Shown here: piece by piece, positions 37,267 to 53,212 of the stretch | How the letters are laid out: each line of letters starts with the position of its first letter | Position numbering within the stretch: the stretch's first letter is position 1 | Assembly (NCBI RefSeq): GCF_988243305.1 | Contig: NZ_OZ547138.1 | From: a plasmid | Reading direction: 5' to 3' (one strand) | DNA length: 64,000 nt | Translations under genes and position numbers: made by a program | Notes under the pieces: model-generated | What the model was told of the DNA's origin: nothing | Databases searched by the model: none | The model's input: only the letters and a program-made list of their open reading frames with translations

Positions 37267-37619
37267 GTCGCCGCAGGCTCCGCTTTACCCGGCCATGCGG
37301 GGCATGGCCTTGTGGGTTTTCAGTTATGTGGCCTCAGCGTCGTGTGCGGGCTGTGCCGTGCCTCCATCGTAGCCGGGCTTCTGCGGGCGGGTTGCAAGGT
37401 AAGGTGAACCGCTGCGGTCACCCGGTCCCTCCTTCCCGTCTGCCGTGATTTTCCGGTCGTTCACCCGCTCAGATTTCGCGGTCTCACCCTCCAACTCCCG
37501 TCAGCCGTGCGCGTCAGGCTGCGGCTTCCCTTGCGCCCTTGCAACCCTGCAGGTCCGGCAAAGATGGAGGCACGGCACCGCCCGGTGTCGCGGAATATGT
37601 GAACAACGGAGGAAATCCC
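37267..37619. repeat. Family-A hairpin element, copy 1 (ssi/Frpo-like candidate ssDNA promoter)
   Basis: About 353 bp, near-identical to 44215-44568. 37353-37368 pairs perfectly with 37563-37578 (21 bp with 1 mismatch over 37348-37368/37563-37583). It ends at the ATG of the klcA/ardB-like gene. Confidence 0.7.
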
Positions 37620-38905: not shown

Positions 38906-39471
38906 CTTCGGCTCCCGGCTGCCTGGCGGCATCCGGTCGTCAGGCCCGACTCCGACGGGCAGCTGCTGGCGCACCCGCCAGTCTCCGCCGAACCCGCTGG
39001 CGCGGTTTCGGGCTGCCGCTACGGTCCGATGCGTGAAAACCCGGCTTGCAGCGACCGTTCCGGTCGCGCCGCCCCTGTCGCGCCGTGACCTGCGCTCCCT
39101 GCACACCTGACGGTGTGTGAGGAAACTGCGCCTGATGGCGCAGCAGTCCTCCCTCCTGCCGCCACTCCTGCGGCCTGTTTCCCGCTGTGGACTTTCCGGG
39201 GGGCAGACGTAACCCCCTCCCGTTCCATCTGTCCAGGGTGAGATGCACCGGCCACAAAATTTTTAGCCATGAACCCGGCAAAAAATTTTGCGTCCGCCCC
39301 CGGACAGCTGCCCCGTGAGGCGGTAAACGGGCCCCCATCGGAAAGGTCCACTGCGGGGAGAAAACCCTGTGAAGTGGACGGCAGGAGGAGCTTTCGCTCC
39401 TCTGAAGGGGCACATGAACGTCCCGTCGCCGGTATCCGGTTTATCTCACATCTTTCAGTCAGGAGGTTCTT
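38906..39471. repeat. Family-B hairpin element, copy 1 (upstream of ssb)
   Basis: About 566 bp with high similarity to 45251-45800, and its 3' two-thirds to 48281-48653. 39152-39161 pairs with 39379-39388, and 39181-39199 pairs imperfectly with 39339-39358. It ends at the ssb ATG. Confidence 0.7.
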
Positions 39472-43511: not shown

Positions 43512-44104
43512 TGAAATCAGACGAAAAATACCAGGTTCCCGCGTGGATGCGACCTCTGTTGCCGTTGCTCTGCAACACCGGGGGGAACGATCCGGAAGAA
43601 CTGCTGAATGATACAGAAACCACTGCCAGTGCGAATGTTGTCCGTTATGTACTGATAGTTGCTGTGCGGTCGCAGGTTGATCTGCTGCAGCTTCTGTACA
43701 GGAAAGGGCTGTTGCGCACAGAGATACCAGGTGGCTTTTCACCGGAAGAAGCGCAGGCACTCCTGGATAATCTGGTGCGCAGCCATATCAGCAAGGCGCT
43801 GTCGGGCGAGCGAATGGCAGCCCGTGACAGAAATGCCGATCTGGCCTGGATTGGACAGCAACTGGTCGATGCCGCCTGGTTTGTCCGTGCCACACTGGAA
43901 GCGCATGGGATGAGCGTCGGAAATGAGAGTCCCCCTGCTCCGCCGGAGACAATGCCGGACATACAGACACGGGAACTGGTGATGTTGATCAAGCGACTGG
44001 CATCATCGCTGAAAGCGGTGAAACCGGACAGTTGTGTGGTGCGTGAAGCGCAGGACTGGCTGCGCGACAGAAAACTTGTGAGCATCACGGATGTTCTCCG
44101 GTGA
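43508..44104 (+). CDS. Hypothetical 198-aa leading-region protein
   Basis: The ATG overlaps the psiA stop (ATGA). Starts [26 protein letters not shown]. Unknown function. Confidence 0.6.
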   Translation: MMKSDEKYQVPAWMRPLLPLLCNTGGNDPEELLNDTETTASANVVRYVLIVAVRSQVDLLQLLYRKGLLRTEIPGGFSPEEAQALLDNLVRSHISKALSGERMAARDRNADLAWIGQQLVDAAWFVRATLEAHGMSVGNESPPAPPETMPDIQTRELVMLIKRLASSLKAVKPDSCVVREAQDWLRDRKLVSITDVLR

Positions 44105-44214
44105 ACCAGTGGAGGTATGCTTGAGGGGCAGGGACATGCCAGTCATGATCGTTTCATATCAGGGGTGGTCTGGAGGTCATGCGGTGTGCTCCCTGCTCTC
44201 GCCGGAATAAGGAA

Positions 44215-44568
44215 GTCGCCGGCGGCTCCGCTTTTACCCGGCCATGCGGGGCATGGCCTTGTGGGTTTTCAGTTATGTGGCCGCCGTGTCGTGTGCGGGC
44301 TGTGCCGTGCCTCCATCGTAGCCGGGCTTCTGCGGGCGGGATGCAAGGTAAGATGAACCGCTGCGGTCACCCGGTCCCTCCTTCCCGTCTGCCGTGATTT
44401 TCCGGTCGTTCACCCGCTCAGATTTCGCGGTCTCACCCTCCAACTCCCGTCAGCCGTGCGCGTCGGGCTGCGGCTTTCCTTGCGCCCTTGCATCCCTGCA
44501 GGCCCGGCAAAGATGGAGGCACGGCACCGCCCGGTGTCGCAGAACATGTGACTATGGAGGATTCGGGA
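44215..44568. repeat. Family-A hairpin element, copy 2 (upstream of ardA)
   Basis: Near-identical to 37267-37619. 44302-44317 pairs perfectly with 44512-44527. It ends at the ardA ATG. Confidence 0.7.
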
Positions 44569-45069
44569 ATGTCTGTTGTTGCACCTGCTGTATACGTTGG
44601 AACCTGGCACAAATACAACTGTGGAAGCATCGCCGGACGCTGGTTTGACCTGACCACGTTTGATGATGAGCGCGACTTTTTCGCCGCCTGCCGTGCTCTT
44701 CACCAGGATGAAGCCGATCCTGAACTGATGTTTCAGGATTATGAGGGATTCCCGGGGAATATGGCCTCTGAATGTCATATCAACTGGGCCTGGGTTGAAG
44801 GCTTCCGCCGGGCACGGGATGAAGGCTGCGAAGAGGCTTATCGTCTCTGGGTGGATGATACCGGTGAGACGGATTTTGACAGCTTCCGCGATGCCTGGTG
44901 GGGCGAGGCTGACAGTGAGGAGGCTTTTGCGGTTGAGTTCGCCAGTGATACCGGCCTGCTGGCTGACGTGCCGGAGACGGTGGCGCTCTATTTTGACTAT
45001 GAGGCGTATGCGCGGGATTTATTCCTGGACTCCTTCACCTTTATTGACGGTCATGTGTTCCGTCGGTGA
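44569..45069 (+). CDS. ardA: Antirestriction protein ArdA (type I R-M inhibitor, DNA mimic)
   Basis: 166 aa starting MSVVAPAVYVGTWHKYNCGSIAGRWFDLTTFDDERDFFAAC. Highly acidic, with a GGAGG SD. The track start at 44488 lies in the repeat. Confidence 0.92.
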   Translation: MSVVAPAVYVGTWHKYNCGSIAGRWFDLTTFDDERDFFAACRALHQDEADPELMFQDYEGFPGNMASECHINWAWVEGFRRARDEGCEEAYRLWVDDTGETDFDSFRDAWWGEADSEEAFAVEFASDTGLLADVPETVALYFDYEAYARDLFLDSFTFIDGHVFRR

Positions 45070-45250
45070 TTTACTCCCCCGCTCCGGCGGGGGTATGGCC
45101 TGCCAGGCCGCCGGAAAACCCTGGCAGGCTTACGCCTGCCTGAAATGCAGGAGGGCCGCGCCTGCGGCGCTGCCCTTCCTGCCCGTCATGGTGTGAGGCA
45201 TTTTTCTGTTATGTCGTTTCTGTTGTTCTGATTTCCGGAGGCGGGGACAC

Positions 45251-45800
45251 CTTCGGCTCCCGGCTGCCTGGCGGCATCCGGTCGTCAGGCCCGACTCCGA
45301 CAGGCAGCTGCTGGCGCACCCGCCAGTCTCCGCCGAACCCGCTGGCGCGGTTTCGGGCTGCCGCTACGGTCCGATGTCTGAAAAACCAGGCTTGCAGCGA
45401 CCGTTCCGGTCGCGCCGCCTCTGTCGCGCCGTGACCTGCGCTCCCTGCACACCTGACGGTGTGTAAGGAAACTGCGCCTGATGGCGCAGTTGTCTGCCCT
45501 TCCGCCGCCACCCCTGCGGCCTGTTTCCCGCTGTGGACTTTCCGGGGGCTGAAGCGGCCACAACACGTGTCAGCCGTCCAGGGGGGAGATGTACCAGCCA
45601 CAAAACTTTTTGCCGCAAGCGTCAAAAACTTTTGCGTCTGCCCCCGGACAACTGCCCCGTGCCGTGGCTGTCGCTGCCCCATCGGAAAGGTCCACTGCGG
45701 GGAGAAACCCCGAAGAAGTGGACGGCAGAAGGGGCTTTCGCCCCTCCGGGGGAGCAACCGGTCGGCCCGGCGACCTGATTCAGCAGAAGGAGACGTTTTC
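45251..45800. repeat. Family-B hairpin element, copy 2
   Basis: Aligns by eye along its whole length with 38906-39471. It ends at the ATG of the unknown 144-aa ORF. Confidence 0.7.
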
Positions 45801-46235
45801 ATGACAGTCAGCAGCACGATTTCCGTTTTTTGCCGCGACGGGGTGTTCCGTACCGTTTACTGCCACCTGCACGGTGAGCCGACCTGGAACGGTCGCATCC
45901 TGCATACCCACTATGCCACCGGTCAGCAGGCCGAAGCCCTGGTTGAACACGGTGATATCCGTTGCCTCGGTCCCCGTTGCGACAAACCCGCCGGGCATAC
46001 GCTTCAGAACCCGGTGGACGGTGTGACGGCTTATTACGGACGTGACAGTGGTTTCCGGATGGACAGTGAGGCGCGTGAGTACCGTTCTTTCAGGGAGGCC
46101 ATCGCCACGGAAAGCACTGAAGAGGTGCGCTTCCATTATGTGTTCATCGACGGCTACTGGAAGGTGATGTACCGCACGCCGGAAGGCTGGAAGATGAAGT
46201 CGCTTGCGCTGGCACTGCGCCGCTGTCCGAAATGA
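45801..46235 (+). CDS. Hypothetical 144-aa protein directly behind a family-B element
   Basis: ATG at 45801 after an AAGGAGA SD. Starts MTVSSTISVFCRDGVFRTVYCHLHGEPTWNGRIL. The track start at 45459 lies inside the repeat and is rejected. Confidence 0.65.
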   Translation: MTVSSTISVFCRDGVFRTVYCHLHGEPTWNGRILHTHYATGQQAEALVEHGDIRCLGPRCDKPAGHTLQNPVDGVTAYYGRDSGFRMDSEAREYRSFREAIATESTEEVRFHYVFIDGYWKVMYRTPEGWKMKSLALALRRCPK

Positions 46236-46328
46236 AAAAAAGGCAGGGCGATAAACCCTGCCTCTCTCCGCCGGCGCTTCCCCGCCAGGAAGCCCGGCAT
46301 CTCAATCACTATCTATGGAGATTATGCC

Positions 46329-46595
46329 ATGAGACCATCAATTATCTTCGCAACCGCCGAGTATGTAAAGCGTCTGCGTGAAGAGTGCCTGCGGGAGAAT
46401 AAACCCCTGCACCGCCATACCCGCTTCAGACGTCAGGAGCTGGCACAGGATGAGATTAACCCGGACGTCCTGGCGATGAGCGGTCATATCGCCAGACGCT
46501 GCAGTGAGCAGAAGCGGGTGCGTATCCCCGCTATGAAAGCCAGCGAATGGGGCCACCTGCTCCGCGCGCTTGAAATTGAACGGGTCTGCCACTGA
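46329..46595 (+). CDS. Hypothetical 88-aa basic protein
   Basis: Preceded by a GGAG SD. Arg-rich. Unknown function. Confidence 0.5.
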   Translation: MRPSIIFATAEYVKRLREECLRENKPLHRHTRFRRQELAQDEINPDVLAMSGHIARRCSEQKRVRIPAMKASEWGHLLRALEIERVCH

Positions 46596-46659
46596 TTAAC
46601 CCTTGCCGTCTGCCTGTGCAGGCGGCAGGATACGTTCAGACATCTCACCAGGAGGAACC

Positions 46660-47562
46660 GTGAGTAAGAAGAAAAACACCACAACGCCCACGCCGCATGA
46701 TGCCGCGTTCCGGTCGTTCCTGGCGAATCCCGACGTCGCCAGAGATTTTCTGGAACTGCATCTTCCGGCGGAGTACCGGCAGTTGTGCGACCTGTCCACG
46801 CTGAAGCTGGAACCCGCCACCTTTGTAGAGCCGGACCTGCATCAGTACGCCAGCGATATCCTCTGGAGCGTGAAAACCACCGGGGGTGAAGACGGCTATG
46901 TTTATACGCTCATCGAGCACCAGAGCACCGAAAATCTGTACATGCCTTTTCGCATGTTACGTTACAGTGTGGCGGCGATGCAGAGACATCTGGAGCAGCA
47001 CAAAACGTTGCCACTGGTGATTCCGGTGCTGTTCTATCACGGTGAGCGCAGCCCGTACCCGTACAGCATGAACTGGCTGGACTGTTTTGAGAATCCGGCA
47101 CTTGCGGCTAAAATATACACAAAGCCGTTTCCGCTGGTTGATATCACTGTCGTTGATGACAATGAAATCATGAATCATCGCCGGATGGCCGCACTGACGC
47201 TGCTGATGAAGCATATCCGCCATCGTGACATGATGGAGCTGCTGGACAAACTCCCGAAGGTCATGGTGGAAATTTCAGACGAGCAGGTGCGTGTTCTGAT
47301 TCATTACATCGTTAACGCAGGGGACTCTGTATCACCGGAATTTATGCGGGCGCTGGCTGAGCGTCTGCCGCAGCATGAGGATAAACTGATGACTATCGCA
47401 GAACGTCTTGAGCAAAAAGGTCGCCAGGAGGGCAGGATGGAAGGTGCGCTTGAAAAAGCCCTGGCTATTGCGTGCCAGCTTCAGAAAATGGGGATGACGC
47501 CGGAGCAGATTAAGCAGGCTACCGGGCTTTCCGATGACGAACTGAAGAAAATCACTCACTGA
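46660..47562 (+). CDS. Rpn-family (YhgA-like, PD-(D/E)XK) recombination-promoting nuclease
   Basis: 300 aa from a GTG after a GGAGGA SD. Contains HDAAFRSFL…, DILWSVK…, YVYTLIEHQS and PLVIPVLFYHG motifs typical of Rpn/transposase_31 proteins. It also has the characteristic C-terminal MTIAERLEQKGRQEG… tail. Confidence 0.8.
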   Translation: MSKKKNTTTPTPHDAAFRSFLANPDVARDFLELHLPAEYRQLCDLSTLKLEPATFVEPDLHQYASDILWSVKTTGGEDGYVYTLIEHQSTENLYMPFRMLRYSVAAMQRHLEQHKTLPLVIPVLFYHGERSPYPYSMNWLDCFENPALAAKIYTKPFPLVDITVVDDNEIMNHRRMAALTLLMKHIRHRDMMELLDKLPKVMVEISDEQVRVLIHYIVNAGDSVSPEFMRALAERLPQHEDKLMTIAERLEQKGRQEGRMEGALEKALAIACQLQKMGMTPEQIKQATGLSDDELKKITH

Positions 47563-47574
47563 TGAGAGTATCAC

Positions 47575-47599
47575 AGCCCGGCAAAATGCCGGGCTTTTT
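47575..47599 (+). terminator. Rho-independent terminator after rpn
   Basis: agcccggca-aaa-tgccgggct followed by TTTT. Confidence 0.7.
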
Positions 47600-47624
47600 A
47601 TCCAGCAGGAGCAGAGCAAACAGT

Positions 47625-47795
47625 ATGACGCTTGCAGAACGTCTTATACAGAAAGGTTTTGAAAAAGGCGCTCTTGAAGTGGCGCGGGAAATAGCCTGTC
47701 GGCTTCGGGATATGGGCTGGCCGCCGAAACGGATTCAGGAGGCTACCGGACTTTCCGGTGAAGAACTGAAAAAACTGTTTCCTGATGAGCAGTAG
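47625..47795 (+). CDS. Free-standing 56-aa paralog of the Rpn C-terminal tail
   Basis: MTLAERLIQKGFEKGALEVAREIACRLRDMGWPPKRIQEATGLSGEELKKLF aligns with the Rpn tail MTIAERLEQKGRQEG..EKALAIACQLQKMGMTPEQIKQATGLSDDELKKI. AGGAG lies 13 nt upstream. Confidence 0.5.
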   Translation: MTLAERLIQKGFEKGALEVAREIACRLRDMGWPPKRIQEATGLSGEELKKLFPDEQ

Positions 47796-47825
47796 CCTGG
47801 CATTCAGCCAGGCTGTGAATCACGC

Positions 47826-48077
47826 TCACACATCCTCTGCCGTTTCCCCCAGTTCATTTTCCAGACGCCTGATGATATCTGCCTTACGCATCCCCTGCAT
47901 GTGAGGCAGCAGGTCACGGACTGAAAGAGCCTGGGTGGTCCTCCAGACGGTGACGTCCACCTGTTCCGCATTTTCCCAGGCGTGCCATGTTCTCTGCGTC
48001 ACGCCAAATTCTCTGGCCGCTTTTTCGCGTGACCAGAGCATGCTTTTTCGCCAGATTCGCAGTTCCCAGTCGGTCAT
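47826..48077 (-). CDS. Small HTH DNA-binding protein (XRE-like)
   Basis: 83 aa. REKAAREFGVTQRTWHAWEN is a helix-turn-helix. Twin palindromic operators lie upstream. Confidence 0.7.
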   Translation of the reverse strand: MTDWELRIWRKSMLWSREKAAREFGVTQRTWHAWENAEQVDVTVWRTTQALSVRDLLPHMQGMRKADIIRRLENELGETAEDV

Positions 48078-48092
48078 AAAATACCTTTGAAA

Positions 48093-48178
48093 AAGTGAAA
48101 AAACTTCACTTTATTTTATCACCATAATCACCAAATCAGCGCGAAAAATAAGTGTGAAAAAGTGAAGAAATTTCACTT
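48093..48178. promoter_or_regulatory. Two 19-bp palindromes AAGTGAA-N5-TTCACTT (putative operators of the HTH gene)
   Basis: Copies at 48093-48111 and 48160-48178, 67 bp centre-to-centre. They bracket an AT-rich promoter-like stretch immediately upstream of the 47826-48077 gene. Confidence 0.65.
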
Positions 48179-48280
48179 TTTTTAATTGCAGATGTCGTGC
48201 TGTTTTCTCTGTTTTCACCTGTGCGGGAGTGGTGTGCCAGTGACCACCACATGCCATTGTTGTGCCGTCGTTTTTCTTCA

Positions 48281-48653
48281 GTCGCGCCGGATGCGGCGCT
48301 CCCTGCACACCTGACGGTGTGTAAGGCCACTGCGCCTGATGGCGCAGCTGTCTCTGCCTGTCTGCCGCCGCACTGCGGCCTGTTCTCCGCAGACGGACTT
48401 TCCGGGGGAACATACACGACCACATCCCGTTTCAGTTATCCAGGGGAGAGATGTACCAGCCACAAAACTTTTTGCCGCAGGCGTCAAAAACTTTTGCGTC
48501 TGCCCCCGGACAACTGCCCCGTGACGTGGTGAGCATCCCCCGTCGGAAAGGTCCACTGCGGGGAAATCCCCGAAGACCCGGACGGCAGAAGGAGCTTCGC
48601 TCCTCCGGGAAATGACCTGGCTGACCCGGCAGTCGTGACGATGAGGAGACAAT
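48281..48653. repeat. Family-B hairpin element, copy 3 (lacks the first ~170 bp)
   Basis: Aligns with the 3' two-thirds of copies 1 and 2 from gtcgcgccg…ccctgcacacctgacggtgtgt onward. It ends at the start of the 283-aa ORF. Confidence 0.65.
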
Positions 48654-49505
48654 GTGATGAATCAGACTTTACCCACTGCTGACCTGAATACTGCCGGCAC
48701 GACAGATATTATTCCGTCTGTGGCCATCGACCGCATTATCGCGCAGCGTAACGAAGGTATTGCACTGTTCATGCAGGCGATGGAATGCCTGGCGACAGCA
48801 CGCAGGATTCTGCTCGATGCTTCTGGTGACATTTTTCTCTACGGGTTTGAAGACTGCGTGACTGACTCTGTTCGATGCATGGATAAACCGGAAGAAGCAA
48901 AAAAGAATATCACCCGTCTTGCCGACCGTAAAATCTGGGACCGCCTGATGGCGGATACGGGGATGTACACCTTCATGAGTTCATGCCAGCGTGATGAGTG
49001 GAACAGCCAGCTGATGAGCGACACCTGTCCTGAAATCACCCTGGACAATGTGCTGGCAACTTTTCGCCATCTGAATGCCAGCAAGATGCAGACATTTGAA
49101 CAGAGACTGATTGATGTCTACCGGAAATTGTCATGGGATTACAGAACCAATAATCCCTGCCGTCTGGGCAAGAAAATCATTATTGAAAACCTGCTGTACC
49201 GCTGGAGTAACGGGCGTGTGACGCTGGACTGCAGCGGACGGGAGGCACTGGATGACCTGGTACGTCCGTTTTATCTGCTGGAGGGACGCAACGTTCCTGA
49301 CTTCAGGAACAGCATCGGGGCGCAGTATGGTGAATATCTCGGGAACGGCGATAATGTCGGTAAGCTGTTAGAAGGGGAATATTTTACGGTGCGTGGCTAC
49401 CAGAAAGGGACCGTACACATTGTCTTTAAGCGTCCTGACCTTGTTGAAAAACTGAATGATATTATTGCACGGCATTATCCTGGTGCATTGCCGCCACGAG
49501 TCTGA
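48654..49505 (+). CDS. Hypothetical 283-aa leading-region protein
   Basis: GTG at 48654 or ATG at 48657, after a GAGGAG SD. No motif I can name with confidence. Confidence 0.65.
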   Translation: MMNQTLPTADLNTAGTTDIIPSVAIDRIIAQRNEGIALFMQAMECLATARRILLDASGDIFLYGFEDCVTDSVRCMDKPEEAKKNITRLADRKIWDRLMADTGMYTFMSSCQRDEWNSQLMSDTCPEITLDNVLATFRHLNASKMQTFEQRLIDVYRKLSWDYRTNNPCRLGKKIIIENLLYRWSNGRVTLDCSGREALDDLVRPFYLLEGRNVPDFRNSIGAQYGEYLGNGDNVGKLLEGEYFTVRGYQKGTVHIVFKRPDLVEKLNDIIARHYPGALPPRV

Positions 49506-49516
49506 TTAAACAGAAA

Positions 49517-49547
49517 AGCCCTGGTATTTATGCCGGGGCTTTTTTTC
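49517..49547. terminator. Hairpin plus T-run between convergent genes
   Basis: agccctgg-tatttatg-ccggggct (1 mismatch) followed by TTTTTTT. Confidence 0.55.
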
Positions 49548-49589
49548 TGTAATCATCATAATCTCAGAACACGATGTGACATTGTCACA

Positions 49590-49931
49590 TCAATTGTTGT
49601 TCATATCGATGCCATCTTTCCTGCCTGAATCTGTCTTTTTAGGTGCTGTTTTAGAGGAAGAACGGCGGGATGGTTTTTTCGATTCTGCTTCCCGAATAAT
49701 GTCGCGAAGTGCTTTCTCTCCTACTTCATACCCTGCATTTTTGAGCGTGTCACGAACATCTGCCAGTGTATAACCCTTTGTCCTTACCAGGACAATGATG
49801 TCATCACGAATGGCATCAAGAAAATCACGCAATGTTTTCCGTTGAGCGGTGAGGTCCGGCAATTCCGATAAGGCAGCTTTTGCCAGCTGGATGTCATCAT
49901 CTGAGTAAAATTTTTTAGAAGCCATTGGCAC
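49590..49931 (-). CDS. Hypothetical 113-aa protein adjacent to oriT
   Basis: Divergent from nikA. Helical N-terminal half and a basic Ser/Lys-rich tail. Possibly an oriT-region DNA-binding accessory protein; unverified. Confidence 0.55.
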   Translation of the reverse strand: MPMASKKFYSDDDIQLAKAALSELPDLTAQRKTLRDFLDAIRDDIIVLVRTKGYTLADVRDTLKNAGYEVGEKALRDIIREAESKKPSRRSSSKTAPKKTDSGRKDGIDMNNN

Positions 49932-50048
49932 TTTCTCTCTGTTTTATGTTGAAGCCTGATTTTATCACCAAAACTGCCTCCTGGCAGGGCTGCGCCCTGC
50001 CTCTGCCGTCTGCATAAGACTATGATGCACAAAAATAACAGGCTATAA

Positions 50049-50135
50049 TTGACCGAAAAACGGGACAGGATGTGGGAATGTCGGACCGCGCACGCGCACT
50101 CAGACATTCCCCACCTGGTCAGGGCTTTGCCCCGA
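50049..50135 (-). other. oriT: oriT (IncI1/R64-type) with predicted nick site
   Basis: The minus strand reads GGGGTGTCGGGGCAAAGCCCTGACC…GGGAATGTCTGAGTGCGCGTGCGCGGTCCGACATTCCCACATCCTG/TCCCG. There are inverted repeats at 50074-50082 and 50103-50111. The RP4/R64-like ATCCTG/T nick motif places nic between 50066 and 50065. Confidence 0.7.
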
Positions 50136-50156
50136 CACCCCGGTAAGGAGCAGACC

Positions 50157-50489
50157 ATGAGTGAGAAGAAAACCCGAACGGGCAGTGAGAACAGGAAGAG
50201 AATTGTAAAATTCACGGCGAGATTCACGGAGGATGAGGCTGAAATCGTAAGAGAAAAAGCGGAGTCAAGTGGACAGACGGTTTCAACATTTATACGAAGT
50301 TCTTCACTGGATAAGGTGGTTAACTGCCGTACTGACGACCGTATGATTGATGAGATTATGCGTCTTGGCCGCCTTCAGAAGCATCTGTTTGTGGAGGGAA
50401 AACGCACTGGTGATAAGGAGTATGCAGAGGTTCTTGTTGCCATTACTGAATATGTCAATGCTCTGCGAAGAGACTTAATGGGACGCTGA
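50157..50489 (+). CDS. nikA: Relaxosome accessory protein NikA (RHH)
   Basis: 110 aa, the R64 NikA length. AAGGAG SD. It lies immediately downstream of oriT and upstream of nikB. Confidence 0.88.
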   Translation: MSEKKTRTGSENRKRIVKFTARFTEDEAEIVREKAESSGQTVSTFIRSSSLDKVVNCRTDDRMIDEIMRLGRLQKHLFVEGKRTGDKEYAEVLVAITEYVNALRRDLMGR

Positions 50490-50500
50490 GATAACTGCTG

Positions 50501-53212
50501 ATGAATGCCATTATTCCGCACAAAAGACGTGACGGCAGGTCTTCCTTTGAAGACCTGATTGCGTACACGTCTGTGCGGGATGATGTGCAGGAAAATGAGC
50601 TCACAGAAGACAGCGAAATCAAGAGTGATGTCCCTCACCGCAACCGTTTCAGACGGCTTGTTGATTATGCAACACGCCTGCGTAACGAAAAATTTGTCTC
50701 CCTGATTGATGTGATGAAGGACGGCAGTCAGTGGGTAAATTTCTATGGCGTAACCTGTTTCCATAACTGCAATTCACTGGAAACAGCTGCTGAAGAGATG
50801 CAGTACAAGGCGGACAAAGCTGTTTTTTCCCGTAATGATACAGACCCCGTTTTCCACTACATTCTTTCCTGGCCTGCGCATGAAAGCCCGCGTCCTGAGC
50901 AGCTTTTTGACTGTGTGCGTCACACACTGAAATCTCTTGAACTCTCAAAACATCAGTACGTGGCTGCCGTTCATACGGACACGGATAATCTGCATGTGCA
51001 TGTTGCCGTGAATCGTGTACATCCTGAAACTGGTTATATTAACTGGCTTTCCTGGAGCCAGGAAAAACTCAGCCGTGCATGTCGTGAACTTGAACTTAAG
51101 CACGGATTCGCGCCTGATAATGGCTGCTTTGTGCATGCACCCGGCAACCGTATTGTGCGCAAAACAGCGCTGGTACGTGAGCGCCGTAATGCCTGGCGAC
51201 GCGGGAAAAAGCAGACGTTCAGGGAATATATTGCGCAGATGTCGATTGCCGGGCTGCGTGAAGAGCCCGCACAAGACTGGTTGTCTTTGCATAAACGGCT
51301 GGCCAGTGATGGTCTGTATATCACGATGCAGGAAGGGGAACTGGTGGTGAAGGATGGCTGGGACAGAGCGCGGGAAGGTGTTGCACTCAGTTCGTTCGGA
51401 CCGTCATGGACAGCTGAAAAACTGGGGCGGAAACTGGGGGAATATCAGCCTGTACCGACAGATATTTTCAGTCAGGTGGGGACACCCGGTCGTTATGATC
51501 CGGAAGCCATAAACGTTGATATCCGGCCGGAAAAAGTGGCAGAAACGGAGAGTCTGAAACAGTACGCCTGCCGTCATTTTGCCGAACGCTTACCGGAAAT
51601 GGCGAGAAATGGTGAGCTGGAAAGTTGCCTGGATGTGCACAGAACTCTGGCAAAGGCTGGATTATGGATGGGGATCCAGCACGGGCATCTGGTACTGCAT
51701 GATGGATTTGATAAACAACAGACACCAGTACGTGCAGACAGTGTGTGGCCGTTAATGACGCTGGATTATATGCAGGATCTGGATGGTGGATGGCAGCCTG
51801 TACCGAAGGATATTTTTACTCAGGTTATACCCGGAGAACGATTCCGGGGACGTAATCTTGGTACTCAGGCTGTCAGTGATTACGAATGGTATCGTATTCG
51901 GATGGGGACAGGTCCACAGGGAGCAATAAAGCGCGAACTGTTTTCCGATAAGGAAAGTCTGTGGGGGTACACGACTGTTCAGTGTGAGTCGTTGATTGAA
52001 GATATGATCGCGGGCGGGAATTTCAGCTGGCAGGCGTGCCATGAGATGTTTGCGCGTAAAGGGCTTATGTTGCAGAAACAGCATCATGGTCTTGTGATTG
52101 TGGATGCGTTTAATCATGAGCTCACACCAGTGAAGGCCAGCAGTATCCACCCGGATTTGACGTTATCCAGGGCTGAGCCGCAGGCAGGGCCATTTGAGAT
52201 TGCAGGTGCAGATATATTTGAACGGGTGAAGCCTGAATGTCGCTACAATCCGGAACTTGCTGCCAGCGATGAAGTGGAGCTCGGCTTCCGGCGCGATCCT
52301 GTACTGCGTCGTGAACGCCGTGAAGCCCGTGCAGCTGCGCGGGAAGATTTGCGCGCGCGTTATCTTGCATGGAAGGAGCACTGGCGTAAACCCGACTTAC
52401 GTTACGGAGAACGGTTACGGGAAATTCATGCTGCCTGCCGTCGGCGCAAGGCGTATATCCGTGTGCAGTTCCGGGATCCACAATTGCGTAAGCTGCATTA
52501 CCATATTGCAGAAGTGCAGCGTATGCAGGCGCTGATCAGGCTGAAGGAGAGTGTGAAGGAAGAGCGGTTGTCACTGATTGCGGAGGGTAAGTGGTATCCT
52601 TTGTCCTACCGGCAGTGGGTGGAGCAACAGGCGGTACAGGGAGACAGAGCTGCATTATCACAGTTACGTGGCTGGGATTATCGTGATCGTCGCAAAGACA
52701 AGCGACGAACAACGAATGCCGACCGCTGCGTGATTCTCTGTGAACCGGGAGGAACTCCACTTTATGAAGACACTGGCGTTCTCGAAGCCCGTCTGCAGAA
52801 AGATGGCAGTGTGCGTTTTCGTGATCGGAGGAATGGCGAGTTAGTCTGTGTGGATTATGGGGACCGTGTGGTGTTCTACCATCATCAGGACAGAAATGAA
52901 CTGGTGGATAAGCTGAATCTGATTGCTCCTGTATTGTTTGATCGTGAGCCAAGAATGGGTTTTGAACCGGAAGGCTCATATCAACAGTTTAATGATGTAT
53001 TTGCGGAAATGGTGGCCTGGCATAATGCAGCTGGAATAACCGGAAGTGGACACTTTGTAATCAGCCGCCCGGATGTGGATTTACATCGTCAGCGTAGTGA
53101 ACAGTACTACCACGAATATATCAGGCAACAGAAAAGCATATCCGGGGGGCATGGCGCATCTTATGCTCCAGTTCAGGATAATGAGTGGACGCCACCATCA
53201 CCTGGAATGTAG
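50501..53212 (+). CDS. nikB: Relaxase NikB (MOBP family)
   Basis: 903 aa. The N-terminal relaxase domain has the HTDTDNLHVHVAVNRV histidine motif. Its size is close to R64 NikB. Confidence 0.9.
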   Translation: MNAIIPHKRRDGRSSFEDLIAYTSVRDDVQENELTEDSEIKSDVPHRNRFRRLVDYATRLRNEKFVSLIDVMKDGSQWVNFYGVTCFHNCNSLETAAEEMQYKADKAVFSRNDTDPVFHYILSWPAHESPRPEQLFDCVRHTLKSLELSKHQYVAAVHTDTDNLHVHVAVNRVHPETGYINWLSWSQEKLSRACRELELKHGFAPDNGCFVHAPGNRIVRKTALVRERRNAWRRGKKQTFREYIAQMSIAGLREEPAQDWLSLHKRLASDGLYITMQEGELVVKDGWDRAREGVALSSFGPSWTAEKLGRKLGEYQPVPTDIFSQVGTPGRYDPEAINVDIRPEKVAETESLKQYACRHFAERLPEMARNGELESCLDVHRTLAKAGLWMGIQHGHLVLHDGFDKQQTPVRADSVWPLMTLDYMQDLDGGWQPVPKDIFTQVIPGERFRGRNLGTQAVSDYEWYRIRMGTGPQGAIKRELFSDKESLWGYTTVQCESLIEDMIAGGNFSWQACHEMFARKGLMLQKQHHGLVIVDAFNHELTPVKASSIHPDLTLSRAEPQAGPFEIAGADIFERVKPECRYNPELAASDEVELGFRRDPVLRRERREARAAAREDLRARYLAWKEHWRKPDLRYGERLREIHAACRRRKAYIRVQFRDPQLRKLHYHIAEVQRMQALIRLKESVKEERLSLIAEGKWYPLSYRQWVEQQAVQGDRAALSQLRGWDYRDRRKDKRRTTNADRCVILCEPGGTPLYEDTGVLEARLQKDGSVRFRDRRNGELVCVDYGDRVVFYHHQDRNELVDKLNLIAPVLFDREPRMGFEPEGSYQQFNDVFAEMVAWHNAAGITGSGHFVISRPDVDLHRQRSEQYYHEYIRQQKSISGGHGASYAPVQDNEWTPPSPGM

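What the first reader, a model, noticed from the sequence alone, without database searches (positions are those of the whole stretch)
46660..47795. Rpn (YhgA-like) nuclease with an internal SD+ATG for its C-terminal tail, plus a free-standing paralog of that tail
The 300-aa Rpn-family PD-(D/E)XK protein ends in a helical tail, MTIAERLEQKGRQEGRMEGALEKALAIACQLQKMGMTPEQIKQATGLSDDELKKITH. An in-frame ATG at 47389 begins exactly at that tail. It is preceded by GAGG 9 nt upstream (gaggataaactgATG).

After a strong terminator (47575-47599), a separate 56-aa ORF (47625-47795) encodes a clear paralog of the same tail: MTLAERLIQKGFEKGALEVAREIACRLRDMGWPPKRIQEATGLSGEELKKLF.

For chromosomal E. coli Rpn proteins, small C-terminal products made from internal starts have been reported to act as intragenic antitoxins of toxic, phage-defensive nucleases. 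Three readings are possible here:
- A toxin with an intragenic antitoxin plus an extra antitoxin copy.
- A plasmid-borne decoy that neutralises Rpn nucleases of the recipient.
- A remnant of a second rpn gene.

Its position in the leading region makes the anti-defence reading worth testing.
Basis: partly seen in the sequence, partly recalled or inferred. Interest (0 to 1): 0.6.

Follow-up and report, generated by a model that had tools for sequence, protein, structure and literature searches.

The report
Plasmid Rpn toxin with spare antitoxin
This is a plasmid copy of the already-described Rpn nuclease toxin, which makes its own antitoxin from an internal start codon and has a spare copy of that antitoxin tail encoded just downstream; it is common and conserved, but it is not a new kind of system.

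Summary
The 300-aa Rpn (46660-47562) has an in-frame SD+ATG at 47389. That ATG aligns residue-for-residue with the experimentally proven internal start of E. coli RpnA (M244; first residue of the RpnA-S crystal structure 7TH0). After a conserved terminator hairpin, a 56-aa ORF (47625-47795) encodes a paralog of the tail (56% identity).

Zhong et al. 2023 (PNAS) already described this RpnL/RpnS/RpnSs architecture on chromosomes and plasmids. That includes the four-residue repeat variation and rpn-rpnSs fusions.

What I add:
- The locus sits about 2.5 kb from oriT in the leading region of IncI-complex plasmids, downstream of an Frpo/ssi-type ssDNA promoter element. It occurs in 1341 of 5426 complete E. 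coli genomes.
- The small ORF is under purifying selection (pN/pS 0.30) and intact in 92 of 99 loci.
- Its repeat number matches the cis tail in only 6 of 92 loci.
- Some plasmids stack two free-standing tails. The small ORFs therefore look like displaced former tails, not remnants of a whole second rpn.

I found no support for the anti-defence decoy reading. No host or phage tail matches the small ORF, and published TnSeq calls it dispensable for transfer. Interest is modest.

The parts
45251..45772 (+). Frpo/ssi-type (class 1) single-stranded-DNA promoter element upstream of the orf144-orf88-rpn operon. The hairpin forms in the transferred (minus/template) strand and drives plus-strand transcription.
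   Evidence: One of three dispersed copies in the window (38906-39428, 45251-45772, 48278-48529). Folded as ssDNA, 45200-45800(-) gives dG -178 kcal/mol, z = -10.4. It corresponds to the ssi sites described for IncI1 plasmids in PMC12672017. That it drives rpn is inferred, not shown.
45801..46235 (+). orf144 (Hp16 of pESBL), hypothetical; first gene of the putative operon
   Evidence: Annotated CDS in the identical plasmid. No family hits.
46329..46595 (+). orf88 (Hp17 of pESBL), hypothetical
   Evidence: no family hits
46660..47562 (+). rpnL: full-length Rpn (YhgA-like) PD-(D/E)XK nuclease, 300 aa, GTG start
   Evidence: Pfam PF04754 E=1.1e-78; TIGR01784 185 bits. The N-domain is 51-57% identical to K-12 RpnA/B/C/E. 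Catalytic D14, D66, E86, Q88 and R98 are conserved.
47087..47114 (+). Promoter-like site inside rpn (TTGAGA-16-TAAAAT); candidate promoter for a short rpnS transcript
   Evidence: 10/12 match to consensus. The -10 hexamer is invariant in 90 loci and the -35 in 80 of them; the other 10 read TTGAGG. Internal promoters are reported for all K-12 rpn genes (PMC10400941). Function here is not shown.
47377..47381 (+). Shine-Dalgarno GAGGA for the internal start
   Evidence: 7 nt before ATG 47389. GAGGA is conserved in all five variant iTIS sequences seen across 87 loci.
47389..47562 (+). rpnS: in-frame internal ORF, 57 aa, the C-terminal tail; predicted intragenic antitoxin
   Evidence: Aligns from its first residue to residue 1 of RpnA-S, PDB 7TH0. 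A profile of tails hits 7TH0 at E=4.5e-13. M244 is invariant in the K-12 paralog alignment.
47422..47445 (+). Two four-residue repeats (RQEG RMEG) in helix 1 of the tail
   Evidence: Repeat number ranges from 0 to 6 among related plasmids.
47575..47600 (+). Intrinsic terminator hairpin with T-run between rpn and the small ORF
   Evidence: 9 bp, 7 GC pairs. RNA fold. The hairpin is retained in all 37 distinct intergenic variants, with paired changes (GGCCCGG...CCGGGCC).
47607..47611 (+). AGGAG leader/SD of the small ORF (13 nt from the ATG; a weaker GAG lies 8 nt upstream)
   Evidence: The leader CAGCAGGAGCAGAGMAAACAGYATG was used as an exact search pattern. It recovered 87 metagenome loci and is present in 13 of 14 plasmid loci.
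47625..47795 (+). rpnSs: free-standing 56-aa paralog of the tail (ypaA-like)
   Evidence: 56% identical to the tail. pN/pS 0.30 over 49 alleles. Intact in 92 of 99 complete loci. The AlphaFold model (pLDDT 80) has RpnA-S 7TH0 as its best PDB match.
47658..47669 (+). Single four-residue repeat (FEKG) in helix 1 of the small ORF
   Evidence: Repeat number ranges from 0 to 6 among alleles.
47794..47818 (.). Hairpin between the convergent small ORF and the minus-strand HTH gene (47826-48077)
   Evidence: Its sequence is an inverted repeat of the terminator region (84% complementary, I1) and is itself palindromic, read from the sequence. No T-run follows on either strand, so its function is unknown.

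Best explanation
The locus is a plasmid-borne member of the Rpn toxin-antitoxin / phage-defence family. It lies in the leading region of an IncI-complex conjugative plasmid.

Proposed mechanism, by homology:
- The full-length product (RpnL) is a non-specific, toxic PD-(D/E)XK DNA endonuclease. Its C-terminal helical domain mediates dimerisation.
- Ribosomes also start at the SD+ATG at 47389, probably on a shorter transcript from an internal promoter as well. This makes RpnS, the free tail.
- RpnS binds the tail of RpnL and keeps the nuclease inactive until a trigger such as phage infection releases it.

The downstream 56-aa gene is an RpnSs. It is a former or duplicated tail module (terminator, leader, tail ORF) placed downstream by unequal recombination at the conserved MT(I/L)AERL-coding 5' end. 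It is retained as a translated small protein.

I think RpnSs is most likely an RpnS-type binding protein with a different pairing specificity from the cis RpnS. In that case it is a heterotypic or orphan antitoxin and a recombination partner for tail switching, not a redundant copy.

Shown here: the anatomy, the homology, the conservation and the population variation. Inferred: translation, toxicity, binding, and transcription from the ssDNA promoter.
For: Family and catalytic residues: with residue roles from PMC5350276.

Internal start homologous to the proven RpnA iTIS and to the first residue of the RpnA-S crystal structure: and PMC10400941.

Four-residue repeat variation in both the tail and the small ORF.

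Evidence that the small ORF is a selected coding gene:
- pN/pS 0.30
- intact in 92 of 99 loci
- ATG and SD conserved, while the alternative upstream ATG is not

Displaced-tail model:
- L036, L047 and L078 carry rpn with an IQQG-type tail, followed by a free-standing copy of the RMEG-type tail. That RMEG-type tail is internal in this window.
- A free-standing FKEG-type ORF follows, each behind its own hairpin and leader.
- L012 is a tail/small-ORF fusion.
- K-12 rpnE-ypaA has the same layout, and YpaA has one extra repeat.

Different specificity:
- Repeat numbers are equal in 6 of 92 loci, against 12.8 expected. Permutation P=0.018, not corrected for phylogeny.
- Zhong et al. showed that one extra repeat abolishes neutralisation in RpnC.

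Context:
- The window is 100% identical to an IncI-gamma/K1 plasmid.
- There are three ssi/Frpo copies.
- PMC12672017 reports zygotic induction of six ssDNA-promoter operons in the IncI1 plasmid pESBL.
- pESBL oriT lies 2.5 kb beyond the rpn ortholog (PMC4288162, Table 2).
Against: Nothing here shows that RpnS or RpnSs is translated from this plasmid, or that this RpnL is toxic or nucleolytic.

The small ORF sits directly behind a conserved terminator, and I found no conserved promoter of its own. Its expression would need read-through.

pESBL TnSeq classed both the rpn ortholog (Hp19) and the small ORF (Hp20) as non-essential for maintenance and transfer. So no phenotype is known.

The PDDEI motif conserved in the four K-12 Rpn proteins compared is DDNEI here. 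The consequence of that change is unknown.

Whether this gene is the RpnP2 that Zhong et al. tested could not be established, because their supplement is not held.
Confidence: 0.72

Rival explanations
1. Anti-defence decoy. The small protein is made early in the recipient. It binds and neutralises Rpn nucleases of the recipient, or of resident plasmids, and so protects the incoming plasmid.
For: The locus is about 2.5 kb from oriT, on the strand orientation shared by leading-region genes, downstream of an ssi/Frpo element. Orphan antitoxins are enriched in leading regions, and an anti-defence role has been proposed for them (PMC11541004). The ORF is under purifying selection and its repeat number varies fast, as expected in an arms race. 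Its repeat number rarely matches its own RpnL.
Against: - No target is visible. The FKEG-type tail was found only as a free-standing ORF. It was not seen on any full-length Rpn in about 100 loci or in 1.84 billion representative proteins. The nearest chromosomal tail, in Enterobacter, is 53% identical.
- K-12 tails are 33-44% identical, less than its own neighbour's tail at 56%.
- At E up to 1e-3, blastn of the tail-plus-small-ORF segment against 5426 E. coli genomes found 2630 places on plasmids and only 30 on chromosomes; the 60 rows sampled were all the plasmid locus.
- The ORF lies behind a conserved terminator.
- pESBL Hp20 is dispensable for transfer in TnSeq (PMC4288162).
- No phage homolog was found.
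Confidence: 0.1
2. Tail-cassette reservoir. The main selected role of the downstream ORF or ORFs is as donor sequence for homologous recombination. That recombination swaps or resizes the RpnL/RpnS tail and diversifies specificity, much like orphan toxin/immunity modules downstream of cdiA or rhs.
For: There are at least three tail allele classes at the rpn 3' end. The RMEG-type tail is internal in most loci but free-standing in L036, L047 and L078. There are stacked arrays of two free-standing tails, and one deletion fusion, L012. The 5' (MTIAERL) and 3' (TGLS..ELKK) ends are conserved and can act as recombination anchors. Zhong et al. also report fusions and independent origins of RpnSs.
Against: A pure DNA reservoir would not need its SD and ATG, yet these are conserved in the small ORF in all ~100 loci recovered — though those loci were selected by an exact match to this leader. 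In K-12 the analogous YpaA protein is detectably made (PMC10400941). This role is compatible with, rather than exclusive of, a protein function.
Confidence: 0.12
3. Decaying remnant of a second rpn gene, with no expression or function.
For: In K-12 the equivalent gene, ypaA, is annotated as a pseudogene. The ORF follows a terminator. TnSeq found no phenotype (PMC4288162).
Against: - Only 62 nt lie between the rpn stop and the ORF. All of it is hairpin plus leader, so there is no N-domain remnant.
- pN/pS is 0.30 over 49 alleles.
- The ORF is intact in 92 of 99 loci. All 7 altered copies come from metagenome assemblies, and all 13 plasmid records that have the ORF have it intact.
- Indels occur only in multiples of 12 nt.
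Confidence: 0.04

Closest known systems
E. coli RpnA-E RpnL/RpnS intragenic toxin-antitoxin systems (Zhong et al. 2023, PNAS, PMC10400941; Kingston et al. 2017, PMC5350276)
   Same: - Same Pfam/TIGR family.
- Same catalytic residues.
- Internal start at the same residue (M244).
- Same three-helix tail (7TH0).
- Same four-residue repeat hypervariability in helix 1.
   Different: - Only 51-57% identical in the N-domain, and below the NCBIfam equivalog cut-offs for RpnA and PRK09956 (325 and 323 bits against 583).
- DDNEI instead of PDDEI.
- Carried in a plasmid leading region behind an ssDNA promoter element, not on the chromosome.
rpnE-ypaA (RpnE-Ss) and rpnC-Ss: free-standing RpnS genes downstream of rpn (PMC10400941)
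   Same: A small ORF immediately downstream that is homologous to, and closest to, the upstream gene's own tail. It has its own start and its own repeat variation. K-12 YpaA also differs from the RpnE tail by one repeat. Fusions to the N-domain occur.
   Different: - A conserved intrinsic terminator lies between the two genes here; K-12 has a 12-nt gap.
- The paralog is much more diverged from the cis tail (56%).
- Some plasmids stack two free-standing tails.
RpnP2 of an ECOR13 plasmid (PMC10400941), shown to be toxic without RpnP2-S and to protect against T-even phages
   Same: A plasmid-encoded Rpn in E. coli with an intragenic antitoxin.
   Different: Identity with this gene could not be checked, because neither sequence nor plasmid type is given in the text held. 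If it is the same gene, the toxicity and defence function are already demonstrated.
Orphan toxin-tip/immunity modules downstream of cdiA and rhs genes (from general knowledge, not tested here)
   Same: A main gene with a variable C-terminal module, followed by displaced C-terminal modules. These can recombine back through a conserved junction sequence.
   Different: Rpn acts inside the producing cell and is not delivered between cells. Here the displaced module is the antitoxin/dimerisation domain itself, not a toxin-immunity pair.

Membership tests
Rpn / YhgA-like nuclease (PF04754, TIGR01784) | Transposase_31 domain above the curated threshold | tested here: met
   PF04754 263.9 bits against a cut-off of 21. 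TIGR01784 184.6 bits against 52.1.
Rpn / YhgA-like nuclease (PF04754, TIGR01784) | PD-(D/E)XK core residues required in RpnA (D11, D63, E82, Q84, R94) | tested here: met
   D14, D66, E86, Q88 and R98 fall in invariant columns of the alignment with K-12 RpnA/B/C/E. Residue roles are from PMC5350276.
Rpn / YhgA-like nuclease (PF04754, TIGR01784) | PDDEI motif, reported identical in all K-12 YhgA-like proteins (PMC5350276) and seen in the four aligned here | tested here: not met
   The motif is DDNEI here. N168 corresponds to RpnA D165, and the D165A mutant is hyperactive (PMC5350276). The motif is not catalytic, so membership of the family still stands.
Rpn / YhgA-like nuclease (PF04754, TIGR01784) | Mg-dependent DNA endonuclease activity and toxicity on overexpression | not testable with these tools
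   Needs experiment.
RpnL/RpnS intragenic toxin-antitoxin | In-frame internal start with SD at the start of the C-terminal tail, homologous to the verified RpnA iTIS | tested here: met
   ATG 47389 is M244. It aligns with M244 of RpnA/B/E and with residue 1 of 7TH0. It is conserved in the related loci.
RpnL/RpnS intragenic toxin-antitoxin | Tail homologous to the RpnA-S three-helix dimerisation domain | tested here: met
   A profile of tails hits 7TH0 at E=4.5e-13 over its full length.
RpnL/RpnS intragenic toxin-antitoxin | Four-residue repeats of variable number 8-20 residues after the initiating Met | tested here: met
   RQEG/RMEG x0-6 or IQQG x3-5, beginning at residue 12 of the tail.
RpnL/RpnS intragenic toxin-antitoxin | Internal promoter giving a short transcript | tested here: inconclusive
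   There is a consensus-like site at 47087-47114; its -10 hexamer is invariant in 90 loci and its -35 in 80 of them. No transcript data are available.
RpnL/RpnS intragenic toxin-antitoxin | RpnS is translated, binds RpnL and blocks toxicity and cleavage | not testable with these tools
   Needs ribosome profiling, tagging, and toxicity and binding assays.
RpnSs (free-standing downstream RpnS, ypaA-like) | Separate small ORF just downstream of rpn, homologous to RpnS and closest to the tail of its own upstream gene | tested here: met
   56% identical to the cis tail, against 33-44% to K-12 tails and YpaA. The model's top PDB match is RpnA-S, with a non-significant E-value for so small a domain.
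RpnSs (free-standing downstream RpnS, ypaA-like) | Own translation signals and its own repeat-number variation | tested here: met
   ATG plus AGGAG leader conserved. F(D/K)(E/Q)G x0-6.
Leading-region anti-defence protein / orphan antitoxin decoy | Encoded near oriT in the leading region, on the strand orientation shared by leading genes | tested here: met
   The locus lies between ardA and nikA, on the same strand as ardA, psiB and ssb. pESBL oriT coordinates are from PMC4288162.
Leading-region anti-defence protein / orphan antitoxin decoy | Mimics, or is cognate to, a component of a host defence system | tested here: not met
   No full-length Rpn with this tail type was found. K-12 tails are 33-44% identical, and the nearest chromosomal tail is 53%.
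Leading-region anti-defence protein / orphan antitoxin decoy | Contributes to transfer or establishment | tested here: not met
   This comes from published data only. pESBL Hp20 scored non-essential 1.00 and required-for-transfer 0.00 (PMC4288162, Table 2, read). The test used laboratory strains, so it is weak.
Pseudogene remnant of a second rpn | Residual N-domain sequence upstream and relaxed constraint | tested here: not met
   The 62-nt intergenic region holds only a hairpin and a leader. pN/pS is 0.30. 92 of 99 loci are intact.

The most novel reading that the evidence does not exclude
The free-standing tails form a small, dynamic array of displaced antitoxin/dimerisation modules. The array expands, contracts and feeds back into rpn by recombination at the conserved MTIAERL junction. 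In this reading the modules are selected to have a pairing specificity different from the cis RpnS (matched repeat numbers are under-represented, 6 against 12.8 expected). A plasmid would then carry immunity to Rpn variants other than its own, for example those of resident IncI-complex plasmids or hosts met on entry. The whole module would be switched on zygotically from an ssDNA promoter. That would make Rpn a polymorphic toxin/orphan-immunity system operating in plasmid-plasmid or plasmid-host conflict.
Probability: 0.15. Interest if true: 0.6.

Novelty: new member of a known kind. Interest (0 to 1): 0.3.

Why it matters
This rpn/rpnSs locus is carried by about a quarter of completely sequenced E. 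coli genomes, on IncI-complex resistance plasmids. It sits in the part of the plasmid that enters a new cell first.

If the module works as its chromosomal relatives do, these plasmids give their hosts a phage-defence/addiction nuclease, which may help explain their success.

The role of the separate downstream RpnSs gene is not tested in the parts of the literature read here. The plasmid population offers a natural experiment on that question. It contains many combinations of tail class and repeat number, and these argue against a simple redundant-antitoxin role.

The basic architecture, however, was already described in 2023.

Tried and rejected
- **Is this gene RpnP2 of ECOR13?** The supplement of Zhong et al. 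is not held, and the main text gives no sequence or plasmid type. Unresolved.
- **PADLOC** has no model that hits Rpn or the small ORF.
- **Pfam** gave only sub-threshold HTH-like hits for the small ORF. The precomputed tag PF27070 seen did not appear among the Pfam hits for the small ORF.
- **Rfam** found nothing in 44000-51000.
- **tblastn against 50,697 phage records** gave no match. So there is no evidence for phage-encoded RpnS mimics of this type.
- **A promoter for the small ORF** between the rpn stop and its ATG: nothing convincing, and the candidate -10 (TATCAC) is not conserved in other variants.
- **The 77-aa PGAP ORF from ATG 47562** is rejected, because that ATG is missing in 13 of the 101 intergenic sequences.
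- **The PDB profile search** was dominated by designer PPR and IcmE/DotG helical repeats. I treat these as compositional, not homologous.
- **Expression data for the pESBL orthologs** during early conjugation are in figures and supplements that are not held.
- **The negative correlation of repeat numbers** (Spearman -0.36) is not corrected for shared ancestry. It falls to -0.26 (n.s.) on unique combinations. I use it only to say there is no positive matching.
Full report
**1. The observation**

- An ORF starting at GTG 46660, preceded by AGGAGG, runs to the stop at 47562 and encodes 300 aa.
- It matches Pfam Transposase_31 (YhgA-like) at E=1.1e-78 and TIGR01784, the Rpn family.
- In frame, ATG 47389 is preceded by GAGGA at 47377-47381 (7-nt spacer). 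It opens the last 57 residues.
- A 9-bp GC-rich hairpin with a T-run follows at 47575-47600.
- ATG 47625, behind AGGAG at 47607-47611, then opens a 56-aa ORF ending at 47795.
- The two small sequences are 56% identical, E=4e-18, and 74% identical over 110 nt of DNA.

**2. Where it is**

The window is 100% identical over this stretch to an IncI-gamma/K1 conjugative plasmid of E. coli.
- The gene order is ssb, parB-like, psiB, psiA, ardA, orf144, orf88, rpn, small ORF, a convergent HTH gene, DUF4942, yggA, then nikA-nikB. This is the leading region.
- In pESBL (IncI1) the same order ends at oriT, 2.5 kb beyond the rpn ortholog (PMC4288162, Table 2, read).
- The window holds three copies of a long structured repeat at 38906-39428, 45251-45772 and 48278-48529. 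It also holds a 97%-identical pair at 37284-37583 and 44233-44532, upstream of the klcA-like gene and ardA.
- The copy just upstream of orf144-orf88-rpn folds very strongly as single-stranded DNA, z = -10.4.
- These fit the class 1 (ssi/Frpo) and class 2 ssDNA promoters described for IncI1 plasmids. There, six such operons are induced up to 500-fold in the first minutes after transfer (PMC12672017).
- That rpn belongs to one of those operons is my inference from position. The per-gene data are not in the text held.
- The locus is very common. It occurs in 2040 PLSDB plasmids and in 1341 of 5426 complete E. coli genomes, with 2630 places on plasmids and 30 on chromosomes.

**3. What the big gene is**

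- The N-domain is 51-57% identical to K-12 RpnA, RpnB, RpnC and RpnE.
- The residues whose mutation inactivates RpnA (D11, D63, E82, Q84, R94; PMC5350276) are all conserved here, as D14, D66, E86, Q88 and R98.
- The PDDEI motif shared by the four K-12 proteins aligned is DDNEI here. The Asn replaces RpnA D165, whose Ala mutant is hyperactive and 42-fold more toxic (PMC5350276). This is noted but not followed up.
- The protein scores far below the NCBIfam equivalog cut-offs for RpnA and PRK09956. It is therefore a separate Rpn lineage.

**4. The internal start**

- The Met at 47389 is residue 244. RpnA, RpnB and RpnE also have LMTIAERL with Met244, and RpnC has Met242.
- Zhong et al. abolished RpnA-S by mutating exactly K240/E241/M244 (PMC10400941).
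- The crystallised RpnA-S (PDB 7TH0) aligns from its residue 1 to residue 244 of this protein.
- A profile of tails matches 7TH0 at E=4.5e-13 over its whole length.
- The SD and ATG are conserved in every related locus that I could read.
- A consensus-like promoter inside rpn (47087-47114) keeps its -10 hexamer in all 90 loci and its -35 in 80 of them, the other 10 reading TTGAGG. This fits the internal promoters reported for K-12 rpn genes, but nothing here shows that it is used.

**5. The small downstream ORF**

I read the locus in 14 further plasmids. I also read 87 metagenome contigs, found by an exact search for the conserved leader.

- **Start.** The ATG at 47625 and its leader are conserved. 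The upstream ATG that PGAP uses (47562, 77 aa) is absent in 13 of the 101 intergenic sequences, so 47625 is the start.
- **Terminator.** The hairpin between the genes is kept in all 37 distinct intergenic variants, with paired changes in the stem.
- **Integrity.** The ORF is intact in 92 of 99 complete loci. The seven altered copies are all from metagenome assemblies, and all 13 plasmid records that have the ORF have it intact.
- **Selection.** Outside the repeats, pN/pS is 0.30 over 49 alleles. The tail gives 0.19.
- **Fold.** An AlphaFold model (pLDDT 80) is helical, and its best PDB match is RpnA-S. The E-value is not significant for so small a domain.
- **No rpn remnant.** Only 62 nt lie between the rpn stop and the ORF. 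These are the hairpin and a leader that weakly resembles the sequence before the internal start.

So the ORF is a selected coding gene, not a decaying pseudogene.

**6. Variation**

- The tail and the small ORF both carry four-residue repeats in the first helix, and both vary in number.
  - The tail has RQEG/RMEG x0-6, or IQQG x3-5 in other allele classes.
  - The small ORF has F(D/K)(E/Q)G x0-6.
- The two numbers are equal in only 6 of 92 loci, against 12.8 expected if independent. Permutation P=0.018, not corrected for shared ancestry.
- The rpn tail comes in at least three allele classes. The small ORF is almost always of one class.
- K-12 YpaA likewise has one repeat more than the RpnE tail.
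- Zhong et al. showed for RpnC that one extra repeat abolishes neutralisation.
- By inference, the small protein does not usually pair with its cis RpnL in the way RpnS does.

**7. Origin of the small ORF**

- In three loci (L036, L047, L078) rpn carries an IQQG-type tail. It is followed by a free-standing ORF of the RMEG type: identical to this window's internal tail in L078 and differing only at its last residues in L036 and L047.
- That ORF is in turn followed by the usual small ORF. Each sits behind its own hairpin and leader.
- In L012 the tail and the small ORF are fused by a deletion.
- The unit 'tail ORF, stop, hairpin, leader' is therefore a module that is duplicated, displaced and deleted by unequal recombination at the conserved ends of the tail. 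The small ORFs are displaced tails.

**8. What is already known**

Zhong et al. 2023 (PMC10400941) reported the following:
- RpnS proteins are made from internal starts and act as antitoxins.
- These arise independently from the upstream gene's tail.
- Four-residue repeat variation extends to the RpnSs proteins.
- rpnSs genes are lost by deletion or by fusion to the N-domain.
- A plasmid-encoded RpnP2 is highly toxic without its RpnS and protects against T-even phages.

Recent PGAP runs already label the small ORF 'RpnC/YadD family protein'. The finding is thus a rediscovery of a known architecture. In the library searched I found no paper that places Rpn in the plasmid leading region. The main text of Zhong et al. 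read here reports no functional test of an RpnSs.

**9. The three readings**

- **Toxin with intragenic antitoxin.** Well supported by homology.
- **Extra antitoxin copy.** Possible, but a simple redundant role fits poorly with the mismatch in repeat number and allele class.
- **Decoy.**
  - This has only its position in its favour.
  - The small ORF is closest to its own neighbour's tail, 56% against 33-44% for K-12 tails.
  - Its tail type was found on no full-length Rpn, either in about 100 loci or in a search of 1.84 billion representative proteins. The nearest chromosomal tail is 53% identical.
  - No phage homolog exists in 50,697 records.
  - It lies behind a terminator.
  - pESBL Hp20, and Hp19 (the rpn ortholog), are 'non-essential' for maintenance and transfer in TnSeq.
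- **Remnant.** Right only as history.

**10. Verdict**

This is a genuine, well-conserved and very widespread member of the Rpn toxin-antitoxin family, with a downstream displaced-tail paralog. The kind is known.

The increments are:
- the leading-region and ssDNA-promoter context;
- the population evidence that the downstream protein is selected yet not matched to its cis partner;
- the stacked-tail arrays.

Function of the small protein remains open. I favour a heterotypic RpnS-like binding protein that also serves as a recombination partner.

Noticed in passing
window 38906-39428, 45251-45772, 48278-48529; and 37284-37583, 44233-44532: There are three dispersed copies of a long, strongly structured repeat, upstream of ssb, of orf144-rpn and of the DUF4942 gene. 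A separate 97%-identical 300-nt pair lies upstream of the klcA-like gene and ardA. They fit the class 1 (ssi/Frpo) and class 2 ssDNA promoters described for IncI1 plasmids.
   Followed up: partly
window 47155-47169 (codons for DDNEI, residues 166-170 of Rpn): The plasmid Rpn has DDNEI where the four K-12 Rpn proteins aligned have PDDEI. The Asn replaces RpnA D165, whose Ala mutant is reported as hyperactive and 42-fold more toxic. So this lineage may be a naturally 'hot' nuclease.
   Followed up: partly
window 47562-47795 and neighbouring genes in L001, L006, L014: Public annotation problems:
- The small ORF is started at ATG 47562 (77 aa, through the terminator).
- Neighbouring hypothetical genes are variously labelled 'CbiX', 'PndC' and 'molybdopterin-guanine dinucleotide biosynthesis protein MobC'.
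   Followed up: partly
L078 (segment nt 295-772), L036, L047: Some plasmids carry two free-standing tail ORFs in tandem behind rpn, each with its own hairpin and leader. The first is of the RMEG type, the tail type that is internal in this window.
   Followed up: yes
window 48078-48119 and 48145-48186: An AT-rich 42-nt direct repeat (83% identical), each copy containing a small palindrome. It lies just upstream of the minus-strand HTH gene (47826-48077) and may be an operator or promoter region.
   Followed up: no
proteins P0168, P0140, P0164: Proteins in the representative library that are built of two or three tandem RpnS-like domains. At least two (P0168, P0140) have no obvious nuclease domain. 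They suggest the tail domain also exists as a stand-alone repeat protein.
   Followed up: no
window 47826-48077 (-) and 48111-48308 (-): An HTH (XRE-like, sub-threshold) gene and a 65-aa ORF run against the direction of all other leading-region genes, convergent with the small ORF. Any regulatory link to rpn is unknown.
   Followed up: no
L109 670-1626 (Enterobacter sp. BRE11 chromosome): A chromosomal Rpn whose tail is the nearest full-length relative of the small ORF's tail type (53% identical). Its tail carries a run of about seven four-residue repeats, most of them L(K/E)(K/Q)G-type.
   Followed up: partly
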